Assembly (NCBI RefSeq): GCF_006345805.1
Contig: NW_021833032.1
Coordinates: 62,001 to 126,000 of the forward strand
Length of the DNA stretch: 64,000 nt
Direction of reading: 5' to 3'
Source: Octopus sinensis
Lineage: Eukaryota
The notes below the pieces were generated by a model. That model saw only the letters and a list, made by a program, of their open reading frames with translations, was not told the origin of the DNA and made no database searches. A program made the position numbers and the translations under genes. Positions 10,367-62,322 of this stretch are shown here, piece by piece. Position 1 is the stretch's first letter, and the number at the start of each line of letters is the position of its first letter.

Positions 10367-10548
10367 ATGTTCCAACAATTGAAATTGAATTTTGTGTTGA
10401 TAATCTCTATGAGTTTCTGTTTGGAGTCTCATGCTGCATCAGACATGTGCAGCATTTGCTTCTGTGACGGTTCTCAGACAAATATAGATTGTTCATTTCG
10501 GCGACTGACTTCGATCCCGCAACCCATTCCACCAAATGTTGAATATTT
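10367..10548 (+). CDS. Coding exon 1: signal peptide, LRRNT cap and start of first LRR
   Basis: [60 protein letters not shown](L); acceptor tttacag at 10346 implies an upstream UTR exon; donor TT|gtaagt. Confidence 0.92.
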
Positions 10549-61700: not shown

Positions 61701-62322
61701 GAGGTTCACACCTAAGATATTTCGTACACTTTCTATGAAGACTTCACTGTGCAATACGCAAAAAGTATCGGTTAAATGATAAGGTTTTCAATGGAATTTA
61801 TCATTTCTTTTTTTCTGCGTTTGGGAATGGGTGACAGAGCGGTGTTGATATGGTTTCGTTACGTATCTCCAAAGTATATCACACATCATTTACAAGCGAT
61901 AAATATAAGTAAAATCTCCAGAACATTGCTTATGCAGTTGTCTTTCAAGACTTGATCAGTTTGTATCGATCCGATCCAATTCGTTGCTTTTCGATAAGTT
62001 TTTGAATTATCATTCATTTAACTTTCGCGCATTCTAAATATTCCCTATGCTGTTGCTGTTGCTTGCAGCAGCAGTAGTAGTAGTATCATCATCAACAGAA
62101 GTAGTAGTAGTATATGATTTTTGTATTTATTGCAACAGCCTGTATGTGAAAATAAGATAACGATGAAGGGTGTTACACTGGAGTTTGAAAAATCCTGCAG
62201 CACATACAGAAAATGTATTGCAGCTCTGAGAAACAATCCCTTTACATGCAATAACTGGACCAGTGGCGCTTCTTGTGTTAGTTGTTGCACCGGAAACTTA
62301 TGTAACGGGAACCATTCCATTG
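10367..62322 (+). CDS. Spliced gene for a secreted or cell-surface LRR protein with a Ly6/uPAR (three-finger)-like domain; 3' end probably outside the window
   Basis: join(10367-10548,20557-20628,27775-27846,32621-32692,36970-37041,40411-40482,46533-46702,59242-59333,62139-62322). All introns are GT-AG, phases 2,2,2,2,2,2,1,0 are compatible, and there is no stop. Product: SP-LRRNT-LRRs-LRRCT-LU-like. Confidence 0.88.
11090..12368 (+). mobile_element. Internally deleted Tx1-like LINE (5' UTR/ORF1 start joined to a 3' end)
   Basis: Shares 5' sequence (TTGAGTTAGTCA...GACCAC) and ORF start (ESYAKMAAA / ENYAKTTSV...[12 protein letters not shown]) with 12370-12990; T-rich 3' end then AATAAAAAA. 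Confidence 0.5.
12370..12990 (+). mobile_element. Second 5'/ORF1 fragment of the same LINE family
   Basis: Diverged paralogue of 11090-11710. Confidence 0.5.
15050..19400 (-). mobile_element. Decayed Tx1/L1-clade LINE (ORF1 zinc knuckle, APE endonuclease, RT)
   Basis: Minus strand: [18 protein letters not shown] (CCHC, ~18600-18650), [12 protein letters not shown] (endonuclease), [12 protein letters not shown] (~16535-16570), [14 protein letters not shown] at 16411-16422, GGLGMP; deletions and stops. Confidence 0.85.
20285..20518. repeat. (CTT)n/(CAT)n polypyrimidine microsatellite
   Basis: Direct reading; ends ~40 nt before the exon 2 acceptor. Confidence 0.95.
20557..20628 (+). CDS. Exon 2: one LRR, 72 nt, phase 2-2
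   Basis: ttccag|G...CT|gtaagt; [23 protein letters not shown](L). Confidence 0.93.
21011..23070 (+). mobile_element. Decayed hAT (Buster/Charlie-type) DNA transposon
   Basis: 5' end CTGTGGTTCTTAACC resembles a hAT TIR; BED-type finger [36 protein letters not shown]; catalytic-region [10 protein letters not shown]; stops and deletions. Confidence 0.85.
23264..23349 (+). ncRNA. Type I hammerhead ribozyme motif (long stem II)
   Basis: ACTTTC-CTGAAGA-GAAAATTGCATTG...CAGTGGAATTTTC-GAAA-CATGT-GTC-AAAAGT; homologue on the minus strand at 47646-47732. Confidence 0.65.
24162..25497 (-). mobile_element. Penelope-like element 3' part (RT C-terminus, Cys linker, GIY-YIG)
   Basis: [51 protein letters not shown]; bracketed by (TA)n. 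Confidence 0.88.
27775..27846 (+). CDS. Exon 3: one LRR, 72 nt, phase 2-2
   Basis: tttcag|G...CT|gtgagt; [23 protein letters not shown](L); not in the ORF track. Confidence 0.92.
30883..32125 (+). mobile_element. Full-length inactive mariner transposon
   Basis: Perfect 20-bp TIRs TTAGGTCGTCAAGTATGAAA, TA target duplication, 1243 bp; [14 protein letters not shown]..., [18 protein letters not shown]; stops and frameshifts. Confidence 0.95.
32621..32692 (+). CDS. Exon 4: one LRR, 72 nt, phase 2-2
   Basis: ttccag|A...AT|gtatgt; [23 protein letters not shown](M/I). Confidence 0.9.
32953..33668 (-). mobile_element. Degenerate mariner remnant (copy B counterpart at 40740-41428)
   Basis: TACGAGGTGTATTCAAAA-type end; the minus strand of copy B reads [18 protein letters not shown] (YSPDLAP-like motif). 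Confidence 0.7.
35118..36873 (-). mobile_element. Penelope-like element with 5' inversion
   Basis: Minus-strand GIY-YIG (35718-36050: [16 protein letters not shown]...[10 protein letters not shown]) and 3' region; plus-strand RT part (36051-36873: [43 protein letters not shown]). Confidence 0.9.
35251..35293 (-). ncRNA. Minimal hammerhead ribozyme motif in the PLE 3' region
   Basis: Minus strand AAC-CTGAAGA-tTGCA...TGTAt-GAAA-GTAC-TA-GTT; palindromic stem III region AGTACT; weak stems. Confidence 0.55.
36970..37041 (+). CDS. Exon 5: LRR, duplicate of exon 3
   Basis: tttcag|G...CT|gtgagt; [23 protein letters not shown](L). Confidence 0.88.
40045..40183 (+). mobile_element. 5' stub of the mariner in copy B
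   Basis: Left TIR retained; the rest is deleted. Confidence 0.85.
40411..40482 (+). CDS. Exon 6: LRR, duplicate of exon 4
   Basis: ttccag|A...AT|gtatgt; [23 protein letters not shown](I). Confidence 0.88.
46533..46702 (+). CDS. Exon 7: last LRR strand plus LRRCT cap
   Basis: tttcag|T...A|gttagt; [56 protein letters not shown] (CxC...C...C); not in the ORF track. Confidence 0.88.
46755..46955 (+). mobile_element. Diverged tRNA-derived SINE
   Basis: GGCGAG... head and B-box-like AGTTCAAACTCC; homologous to 5780-5987 (-). Confidence 0.6.
47055..47428 (+). mobile_element. Near full-length Octopus-type SINE
   Basis: tRNA-like head GTGGCTCTGTGGTAAGAAGCTTGCTTCCCAACC, internal microsatellite, 3' part shared with 2995-3200, (AAAGAAT)n tail. 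Confidence 0.8.
48212..48642. mobile_element. Fold-back Penelope-type terminal-repeat element
   Basis: ~175-bp near-perfect inverted arms around a 5-nt loop (48463-48467), ~75-bp unpaired left tail, (TA)n on both sides. Confidence 0.85.
48500..48543 (+). ncRNA. Minimal type I hammerhead ribozyme (mirror copy at 48387-48430, - strand)
   Basis: CCAC-CTGACGA-ATGTC/GACAT-GAAA-CAATT-GTA-GTGG; full core, palindromic stem III region ACAATTGT. Confidence 0.85.
48670..52235 (+). mobile_element. Probable PLE 3' end with expanded internal microsatellite
   Basis: Starts [30 protein letters not shown] (like a GIY-YIG C-terminus); ends with a hammerhead-like motif at 52187-52221; (TA)n on both sides. Confidence 0.55.
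49197..51121. repeat. (TACA)n/(CA)n compound microsatellite, ~1.9 kb
   Basis: Direct reading. Confidence 0.97.
52261..56532. mobile_element. Large inverted-repeat element of the same Penelope-type family
   Basis: ~1-kb arms 52261-53298 and ~55419-56455, ~75-bp tail on the right, hammerhead motif in each arm. Confidence 0.85.
56319..56361 (+). ncRNA. Minimal type I hammerhead ribozyme (mirror copy at 52357-52399, - strand)
   Basis: CCAC-CTGAAGA-TTGTC/GACAA-GAAA-CAATT-GTA-GTGG. Confidence 0.85.
57917..58337. mobile_element. Second short fold-back element
   Basis: ~170-bp inverted arms around loop 58163-58167, same ~75-bp tail, (TA)n flanks. Confidence 0.85.
58198..58240 (+). ncRNA. Minimal type I hammerhead ribozyme (mirror copy at 58090-58132, - strand)
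   Basis: CCAC-CTGACGA-ATGTC/GACAT-GAAA-CGATT-GTA-GTGG. Confidence 0.8.
58410..58702 (-). mobile_element. CR1-type LINE 3' fragment, same family as 1050-1960, internally deleted
   Basis: [23 protein letters not shown]...LKLYSLQRR; (ATCTAAGTTT)2 tail; within (TA)n. Confidence 0.9.
59242..59333 (+). CDS. Exon 8: linker plus N-terminal part of the LU/three-finger-like domain
   Basis: gtatag|AT...GAG|gtaagc; (N)[30 protein letters not shown]; phase 1-0 bridges exons 7 and 9. Confidence 0.85.
59400..61135 (+). mobile_element. Highly decayed Tx1/L1-clade LINE
   Basis: [29 protein letters not shown] linker motif; T-rich 3' end like the other copies. Confidence 0.5.
62139..62322 (+). CDS. Exon 9: C-terminal part of the LU/three-finger-like domain
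   Basis: caacag|CCT...ATTG|gtaagc; [61 protein letters not shown] with the CCxxxxCN signature. Confidence 0.9.

What the first reader, a model, noticed from the sequence alone, without database searches (positions are those of the whole stretch)
10367..62322. Hidden gene: VLR-like LRR solenoid fused to a Ly6/uPAR three-finger-like domain
Seen: nine exons over 52 kb splice in frame to signal peptide, LRRNT (CSICFC...DC), six LRR beta-strands, LRRCT (CGC..C..C), then LQCQTC...CCTGNLCN. The exposed strand positions are Tyr-rich (EY-Y-AG, KY-D-YG, EE-Y-GN, YN-D-HG, KY-Y-RN, YY-D-RN). Known: SP-LRRNT-(24-aa LRR)n-LRRCT is the layout of agnathan VLRs and many other receptors, and CCxxxxCN closes LU domains. 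I do not know a characterised protein with an LU domain directly after an LRRCT. Inference: an undescribed mollusc/cephalopod recognition protein (immune, allorecognition or neural wiring).
Basis: partly seen in the sequence, partly recalled or inferred. Interest (0 to 1): 0.9.

Follow-up and report, generated by a model that had tools for sequence, protein, structure and literature searches.

The report
Octopus variable-tip adhesion GPCR family
This octopus gene encodes an adhesion G-protein-coupled receptor whose leucine-rich-repeat tip, likely its ligand-binding part, changes unusually fast across dozens of gene copies, so the family would act as a variable sensor of foreign or self surfaces.

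Summary
The nine exons are real and splice in frame, but they are only the front of the gene. Twelve more exons beyond the window add SEA-like, HormR, GAIN/GPS and transmembrane parts. It is an adhesion GPCR (signal peptide-LRR-LU-SEA-HormR-GAIN-7TM), not a VLR-like GPI protein. It belongs to the octopus 'group 3' expansion of Ritschard 2019, whose InterPro table names no LU or SEA domain and which found no selected sites. LU-bearing GPCRs are already reported in molluscs and starfish.

New here: at least 58 LRRCT and 73 LU exon matches in clusters; 3 to about 21 LRRs per gene, each internal LRR on a 72-nt cassette exon; and amino-acid change concentrated on the concave LRR face (pN/pS 2.7; omega 7.6 in one exon class, 0.98 in another). 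The assembly has a 1-base frameshift in exon 10; no laid contig carries it, so it is probably an error. The LU fold is supported by sequence only. Likely role: ligand-variable surface sensor; ligand untested.

The parts
10367..10548 (+). Coding exon 1: signal-peptide-like N-terminus (no predictor run), LRRNT, start of first LRR strand; a splice acceptor precedes it (exon from 10347), so a 5' UTR exon lies upstream
   Evidence: 57 matches of the LRRNT part in G000
20557..20628 (+). Exon 2: 72-nt phase 2-2 LRR cassette
27775..27846 (+). Exon 3: 72-nt LRR cassette
32621..32692 (+). Exon 4: 72-nt LRR cassette of the class that normally precedes LRRCT
36970..37041 (+). Exon 5: recent copy of exon 3; 4 of its 5 base differences change concave-face residues
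40411..40482 (+). Exon 6: recent copy of exon 4; both base differences change concave-face residues
46533..46702 (+). Exon 7: last LRR strand and LRRCT
   Evidence: 58 matches in G000
59242..59333 (+). Exon 8: first half of the 12-Cys LU-like domain
62139..62322 (+). Exon 9: second half of the LU-like domain with the CCxxxxCN end; phase 1 donor
   Evidence: 73 matches in G000; LYPD1 best solved-structure hit for the 87-90% identical P0002
62323..64000 (+). Start of intron 9. The gene continues beyond the window on G000:C9503 (contig coordinates): exons 10-12, SEA-like (126234-126327, 94 nt with a 1-base frameshift as assembled; 133637-133689; 140683-140831); exons 13-14, HormR (146801-146915; 149849-150018); exons 15-19, GAIN ending in the GPS motif (151683-151905; 152385-152556; 155257-155409; 156663-156791; 157842-157991); exons 20-21, TM1 and TM2 (159412-159530; 166297-166420). 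The contig ends at 171515, so TM3-7 are not on it
27679..43110 (+). About 9.2-kb internal tandem duplication that added two LRR exons
   Evidence: self-alignment: 97% over 3344 bp, 91% over 1288 bp, 90% over 1078 bp

Best explanation
The gene encodes an adhesion GPCR (LRR-LU-SEA-HormR-GAIN-7TM), one of dozens of octopus copies whose concave LRR face is diversified, and the family likely works as a germline repertoire of sensors for fast-changing foreign surfaces such as microbes or parasites at skin, suckers, gills and gut. Shown: exon structure, domain order up to TM2, family size and clustering, LRR number variation by whole-exon duplication, excess amino-acid change at concave codons. Inferred from established aGPCR biology: GAIN self-cleavage at H-L|T; ligand binding to the LRR face plus pull or shear displaces the ectodomain, exposes the Stachel segment and activates G protein. 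Inferred: LU and SEA serve as conserved spacer or co-receptor modules; cassette splicing of LRR exons adds specificities. Odds: aGPCR identity 0.95; concave face is the diversified binding site 0.75; ligand class microbial or parasitic rather than self or neural 0.45.
For: 21 exons, 20 of 20 introns GT-AG, 880 codons without a stop once one N holds the frame in exon 10. Full-length paralogues carry LRR_8, GPS and 7tm_2. Three Logan contigs of 4.0-4.4 kb each encode a whole 1155-aa relative, too short for 20 introns, so spliced. GAIN-7TM best matches ADGRG2/G6; a paralogue model's top Foldseek hit is the Gpr126 ectodomain (E 4e-13). 52 of 58 LRRCT matches have an LU exon within 30 kb downstream, 25 of 58 also a GPS exon. 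Concave codons: pN 0.246 vs exon pS 0.091 in 22 distinct exon-4-type copies (p 7e-7; other exposed sites 0.050); codon model omega 7.6, p 1e-4; exon-3 type 11 nonsynonymous, 0 synonymous; close exon-2 type 30 and 0. GPS, LU and LRRCT exons each give 0.56. Five database isoforms of one paralogue each lack one 24-aa unit. Group 3 is expressed outside the brain, in gills, skin, suckers and arm cord.
Against: No ligand, cell type or signalling data. For all 25 exon-2-type copies the codon model gives omega 0.98; the close subset was chosen afterwards. Spanning-tree counts are not independent lineages, and gene conversion could shuffle existing variants. Expression of the four linked O. bimaculoides genes is mixed: skin 0.71; arm cord 0.25; testes 0.27 and sucker 0.22; retina 0.21. 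As assembled, this copy stops at codon 356. TM3-7 are not on the contig. The exon 7-8-9 joins were not tested with reads for this copy.
Confidence: 0.45

Rival explanations
1. Same receptor, but the variable face reads self versus non-self octopus tissue (allorecognition, for example the skin cue that stops suckers gripping the animal's own arms, or gamete recognition).
For: Diversifying concave face; linked family members peak in skin, sucker or testes; a chemical skin-sucker self-recognition is cited from Nesher 2014 (passage in PMC8988249).
Against: No allele data; diversification was measured between paralogues, not individuals; the nature of the skin cue was not examined here.
Confidence: 0.15
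2. A neural wiring code for the arm nervous system: paralogues and LRR splice forms label neurons and bind endogenous partners, complementing protocadherins, as Ritschard et al. suggested.
For: Arm nerve cord enrichment of some group 3 genes; cassette LRR isoforms; LU most like LYPD1, a neural modulator.
Against: Group 3 expression is dominant outside the brain and high in gills in C. minor; omega above 1 at the binding face among very young copies fits conflict better than a stable endogenous code (inference).
Confidence: 0.2
3. An ADGRG6-like matrix or force sensor family expanding by birth and death, with the concave face merely relaxed and homogenised or shuffled by gene conversion.
For: SEA-HormR-GAIN chassis like Gpr126; omega 0.98 in the full exon-2 class; several copies look broken (3 of 19 exon-10 copies out of frame).
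Against: Concave pN exceeds synonymous and intron rates (13 changes in 81.5 sites vs intron 0.053, p 3e-4); 6 of 7 differences between this gene's own duplicated exons are concave replacements.
Confidence: 0.12
4. This particular copy is a pseudogene or makes a secreted LRR-LU protein of 355 aa, because exon 10 is truly frameshifted (concerns this copy only, not the family).
For: Exon 10 is 94 nt against 95, 83 or 86 nt in 16 of the 18 other copies read; many database models of the family stop before GPS.
Against: In all 4 runs laid, the contigs that span the site show one more base; in X2 and X3 a 72-nt contig matches this exon with no other difference; all 11 later exons are open.
Confidence: 0.12

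Closest known systems
Octopus 'group 3' adhesion GPCR expansion (Ritschard et al. 2019, PMC6408891)
   Same: Four relatives found here (A0A0L8FLR8, A0A0L8HDZ7, A0A0L8FKK5, A0A0L8GYR2) are listed as group 3; GPS, adhesion 7TM, LRR in 5 of 22; one bobtail squid member; branch-level positive selection.
   Different: The paper had 22 sequences from three species; its InterPro table has no toxin, Ly-6, uPAR, SEA or GAIN term; it found no selected sites. Here: 58-73 exon matches in one genome, LU and SEA-like domains, cassette LRR exons, selection located on the concave face.
ADGRG6/GPR126 (CUB-PTX-SEA-HormR-GAIN-7TM; PMC6954182)
   Same: SEA-HormR-GAIN-7TM order; top fold hit 6v55; ADGRG-type GAIN/7TM sequence; alternatively spliced ectodomain.
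   Different: LRR-LU replaces CUB-PTX; multi-copy and fast-evolving; sequence hits rank ADGRG2 above ADGRG6, so no one-to-one orthology is claimed.
LU-bearing GPCRs of starfish (LyAr2), molluscs and arthropods (PMC11595613, PMC13719153)
   Same: An LU domain in the N-terminus of a GPCR; the starfish one is also closest to LYPD1/Lynx2, as here. The 2026 paper's Fig. 2 legend lists GPS and LRR among its domain symbols.
   Different: Figure and supplements were unreadable, so whether they show this very architecture is unknown; the text read gives no family size, SEA domain, exon structure or selection.
ADGRA2/ADGRA3 (GPR124/125; LRR-Ig-HormR-GAIN-7TM, recalled)
   Same: LRR solenoid at the tip of an adhesion GPCR; one relative is database-named ADGRA3.
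   Different: LU and SEA-like domains in place of Ig; GAIN-7TM nearest ADGRG among solved structures.
Agnathan variable lymphocyte receptors (features recalled)
   Same: LRRNT-(24-aa LRR)n-LRRCT, variable repeat number, hypervariable concave face; hagfish VLR is the top VIA hit for the LRR part (Z 15.2, rmsd 1.8, 113 aligned), tied with other LRR proteins.
   Different: Complete germline genes with one intron-bounded exon per LRR; no stalk or GPI tail; signals through its own 7TM.

Membership tests
Adhesion GPCR | GAIN domain with GPS motif directly before TM1 | tested here: met
   Exons 15-19 end in the GPS motif with H-L-T, TM1 follows; Pfam GPS in paralogue P0005, E 6e-13; GAIN-HormR fold hits
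Adhesion GPCR | Secretin-type 7TM domain | tested here: met
   TM1-TM2 on the contig, 62-75% identical to P0005, whose 7tm_2 scores E 1e-34; TM3-7 of this copy lie past the contig end
Adhesion GPCR | Autoproteolysis and tethered-agonist G-protein signalling | not testable with these tools
   Only the motif is seen
Octopus group 3 aGPCR (Ritschard 2019) | Falls among listed group 3 sequences | tested here: met
   44-55% identity to A0A0L8HDZ7's and A0A0L8FLR8's records over about 830 aa; shares a 100/99 clade of 9 rows with A0A0L8HDZ7, A0A0L8FKK5 just outside (15 rows, midpoint root, no outside aGPCR; 5 of 19 chosen proteins dropped by the cutting step)
Ly6/uPAR (LU) domain | 10-12 conserved Cys with LxCxxC start and CCxxxxCN end | tested here: met
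   12 Cys, spacing 2,4,7,6,16,5,10,8,2,0,4; pattern in 64 of 80 stored proteins, identical spacing in 53
Ly6/uPAR (LU) domain | Sequence similarity to solved LU domains | tested here: met
   Weak: P0002's best three of four PDB hits are LU folds, LYPD1 E 0.0056 and ACVR1 E 0.05-0.06; exon-9 profile gives ACVR1 E 0.009; P0026 found none; no LU family among the 25 of 55 Pfam families shown
Ly6/uPAR (LU) domain | Three-finger fold with the LU disulfide pattern | tested here: inconclusive
   Both AlphaFold2 models have pLDDT mostly under 50 there; only the loop II hairpin and a helix formed; fold search uninformative
SEA domain | Ferredoxin-like alpha/beta sandwich before HormR | tested here: inconclusive
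   Strand-helix-strand-strand-helix-strand order at pLDDT about 60-80 in P0008 260-351; VIA aligns 251-549 to Gpr126 370-666 (Z 12.3, rmsd 11.3, 192 aligned); Pfam SEA in 2 of 32 members, best E 3e-4; not folded alone
ADGRG6/GPR126 orthologue | N-terminal CUB and pentraxin domains | tested here: not met
   N-terminus is LRRNT-LRR-LRRCT-LU
ADGRA2/3 | Ig domain between LRR and HormR (recalled) | tested here: not met
   The interval is filled by the 12-Cys domain and the SEA-like domain
Variable lymphocyte receptor | LRRNT-LRR-LRRCT solenoid with variable concave face | tested here: met
Variable lymphocyte receptor | Incomplete germline gene assembled somatically from cassettes (recalled) | tested here: not met
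   Complete germline gene, each internal LRR its own spliced exon; somatic change on top of this was not tested
Variable lymphocyte receptor | Stalk with GPI anchor or single TM after LRRCT (recalled) | tested here: not met
   LU-SEA-HormR-GAIN-TM follow

The most novel reading that the evidence does not exclude
Octopuses have built a VLR-like variable receptor repertoire on an adhesion-GPCR chassis: tens of clustered genes, LRR modules multiplied and skipped as 72-nt cassette exons, and a positively selected binding face, wired to a force-gated G-protein switch in skin and suckers. This repertoire would be the molecular basis of octopus self/non-self touch recognition or of diversified mucosal immunity.
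Probability: 0.25. Interest if true: 0.9.

Novelty: new variant of a known kind. Interest (0 to 1): 0.6.

Why it matters
Adhesion GPCRs are usually thought of as few and conserved (own knowledge). Here a published but thinly described octopus expansion turns out to be larger, to have a defined LRR-LU-SEA-HormR-GAIN ectodomain, and to diversify on the face where LRR receptors bind ligand. That gives concrete candidate receptors for two open questions: how cephalopods recognise microbes at barrier tissues, and how suckers tell self from non-self. It also explains scattered database names (TLR5, Slit, chaoptin, decorin, LINGO, LYPD1-like) as pieces of one family.

Tried and rejected
VLR-like GPI or secreted LRR-LU protein: rejected, the gene continues into GAIN and TM exons. 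AlphaFold2 on LRRCT-LU (22-row alignment) gave mean pLDDT 42.8 and no usable fold search; the full-length model was also poor over LU. ESM Atlas: no usable hit for two LU-containing parts. Pfam gave no LU family. A 23-row profile meant for LU alone was swamped by long rows. No record named from outside cephalopods turned up or among the hits that were looked up by name (9 of 31, some others known from earlier calls); several records are unnamed and these searches are limited in reach, so lineage restriction is not proven. No RNA holder was on record for exon 9 ('no RNA holder listed'); the RNA status of X1-X3 is the tool's guess. None of 80 stored proteins is this copy's own product (best: 79 shared 20-mers with P0001). 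Literature searches found no paper on this family beyond Ritschard 2019; one search found the two LU papers. An 'adhesion GPCR G6' is reported in O. vulgaris skin mucus, but its accession was unreadable, so it is not counted as evidence. Three look-ups in earlier scan findings were empty. No complex prediction was run, as no partner is claimed.
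Full report
Observation. A scan for AG..GT exons found five 72-nt LRR exons and the LRRCT exon. With exact ends, nine exons give one open frame of 329 codons; the first six introns are phase 2, then 1, 0, and a phase 1 donor after exon 9. Chance is excluded: 5 consensus LRR exons on +, 0 on -, 1 in 100 shuffles. Exons 5-6 are a recent duplicate of exons 3-4 within a repeat of about 9.2 kb. A false duplication of two haplotypes cannot be excluded; the differences would then be allelic.

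The gene goes on. The window is G000:C9503:62001-126000 in a 2.72-Gb genome; close relatives are Octopus proteins (87-93% in the best stretches). Neighbouring stretches searched with those relatives gave 12 more exons between contig positions 126234 and 166420: a SEA-like part, HormR, GAIN ending in the GPS motif, TM1 and TM2. All 20 introns are GT-AG. With one N in exon 10 the 21 exons read 880 codons without a stop; the contig ends 5 kb later. As assembled, exon 10 is 94 nt and the frame stops at codon 356. Of 20 exon-10 loci, 19 gave an exon: 16 in frame, 3 not, including this one. Contigs from four public runs were laid on the exon. The contigs spanning the site show one more base in all four runs; in X2 and X3 a 72-nt contig matches with no other difference; in X18 (about 76% read) the two spanning contigs account for all depth there. 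An X1 contig runs from an exon-9-like end (28 of 30 bases alike) through exon 10 into the exact start of exon 11, so a very close copy or allele is spliced. I read the frameshift as a probable assembly error (about 0.85). They are supported by relatives: the LU pattern is in 64 of 80 stored proteins, and three Logan contigs of 4.0-4.4 kb each encode a whole 1155-aa member.

Domains. Full-length paralogues carry LRR_8, GPS and 7tm_2. A family profile matches ADGRG2 and ADGRG6 best among solved structures. An AlphaFold2 model of paralogue P0008 (mean pLDDT 54) has a confident LRR, a ferredoxin-like order at 260-351 and a helical GAIN part. Its top Foldseek hit is the Gpr126 ectodomain (E 4e-13, low TM-score), and VIA aligns 251-549 to Gpr126 370-666. 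Gpr126 is CUB-PTX-SEA-HormR-GAIN (passages of PMC6954182), so the octopus protein has that chassis with LRR-LU at the tip. The Cys domain has 12 cysteines with fixed spacing. Its best solved relatives are LYPD1 (E 0.0056) and ACVR1, and NCBI names P0002 'ly6/PLAUR domain-containing protein 1-like'. The fold was not confirmed: both models are low-confidence there.

Family. In G000 the LRRCT exon has 58 matches (61 candidates), LU exon 9 has 73 (78), the GPS exon 48 (65) and LRRNT 57 (73); these are lower bounds. 52 of 58 LRRCT matches have an LU exon within 30 kb on the same strand, and 25 of 58 also a GPS exon within a further 100 kb; on contigs C1-C30 the counts are 34 and 22 of 38, mostly on C27 and C29. 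Matches on small contigs may include haplotype duplicates. LRR number ranges from about 3 to 21 among 30 records with a full N-terminus. Three close paralogues have 8, 6 and 7 cassette exons in the stretches fetched, against 5 here. Five database isoforms of one paralogue each lack one 24-aa unit of the longest form; these are gene-model predictions, not reads I checked.

Selection. The five concave 'x' codons were fixed beforehand from the LRR consensus. Between this gene's own duplicated exons, 6 of 7 base differences are replacements at those codons. Across 22 distinct exon-4-type copies (26 of 27 loci usable) concave pN is 0.246, other exposed sites 0.050, core 0.019, exon pS 0.091 (ratio 2.7, p 7e-7). 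A codon model on a fixed tree gives omega 7.6 (p 1e-4 against 1). Among the 8 closest copies, 13 concave replacements in 81.5 sites exceed the flanking-intron rate of 0.053 (p 3e-4). Exon-3 type (6 distinct of 8): 11 replacements, no synonymous change. Exon-2 type (25 distinct; 4 of 29 loci returned an exon already counted): ratio 1.66, p 5e-4, but codon-model omega 0.98, which does not support selection; a close subset chosen afterwards (12 copies) has 30 replacements and no synonymous change at concave codons. Controls: GPS exon (20 distinct of 21), LU exon 9 (29 of 30) and LRRCT (11 of 30 loci chosen as full-length) each give pN/pS 0.56. Limits: spanning-tree pairs, few codons, possible gene conversion.

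Mechanism. From established aGPCR biology (own knowledge; passages), GAIN cleaves itself, the halves stay bound, and ligand plus force on the ectodomain frees the tethered agonist. I infer that the concave LRR face is the ligand site, that paralogues and splice forms differ in specificity, and that LU and SEA are more conserved spacer or co-receptor parts. The ligand class is open. Fast change at the binding face and expression outside the brain, in gills, skin and suckers, favour microbes or parasites (0.45). Neural wiring (0.2), self-recognition (0.15) and relaxed birth-and-death (0.12) remain. The four group 3 genes I could link have mixed profiles.

What is known. Ritschard 2019 (PMC6408891; passages, supplement searches, Table S2 parts 5-6 of 14) defined group 3: 22 sequences, GPS/7TM, LRR in 5, one bobtail squid member, branch-level selection, no selected sites. 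Four of my relatives are in it; three of those records carry the LU pattern. Paramonov 2026 (PMC13719153; parts 1-3 of 4 read; figures and supplements unseen) reports LU-bearing GPCRs in molluscs and arthropods, with GPS and LRR in the figure legend, so this architecture may already be drawn there. Lyukmanova 2024 (PMC11595613; passages) describes a starfish LU-GPCR closest to LYPD1. PMC11431876 (passages; supplement unreadable) and PMC8988249 (passages; Nesher 2014 itself not read) are leads only. Searches found no description of the family's size, cassette exons or concave-face selection; subscription papers are largely outside that library. VLR and ADGRA features are recalled.

Verdict. Real gene, known family, richer than described: a new variant of a known kind. 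The diversified binding face on a multi-copy adhesion GPCR is the part worth pursuing. Interest 0.6.

Noticed in passing
window 52255-53298 and 55419-56461: About 1-kb inverted repeat (97%) in intron 7, beside long CA/TACA-type simple repeats at about 49.2-52 kb; further short inverted elements at 48.2-48.7 kb and 57.9-58.4 kb.
   Followed up: no
window 36004-36808, 907-1857, and contig C9503 about 137.1-138.0 kb: Stretches whose translations look like reverse-transcriptase remnants of retroelements (label recalled, not tested). The one at 36 kb sits just before the second copy of the duplicated unit.
   Followed up: no
G000:C29:1825957-1842590, C29:2087014-2117922, C6381:29293-41588: Several paralogues appear to have three or four LU exons in tandem; P0026 holds two LU-like units.
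   Followed up: no
P0035, P0053, P0054: One branch carries a Death domain in the cytoplasmic tail (Ritschard Table S3); its O. bimaculoides gene is 71% skin-expressed. This hints at immune-type signalling.
   Followed up: partly
P0003, P0004, P0009, P0012-P0015, P0027, P0031, P0036: Many database models stop before GPS and some are named TLR5, Slit, chaoptin, decorin or LINGO. They may be split annotations or real secreted forms.
   Followed up: partly
G000:C27:17797480-17818156 and C27:18303098-18343103: One close paralogue has two LRRCT exons and an LU exon missing terminal cysteines; another LRR array has no LRRCT in the stretch fetched, which holds a gap.
   Followed up: partly
G000:C10946:2915-3061 and 55280-55426: The two GPS exons closest to this gene (94-96%) lie on opposite strands of one small contig; useful for finding the missing TM3-7 exons.
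   Followed up: no
window 10347-10366: A splice acceptor precedes the ATG, so the promoter and a 5' UTR exon lie further upstream and were not located.
   Followed up: no
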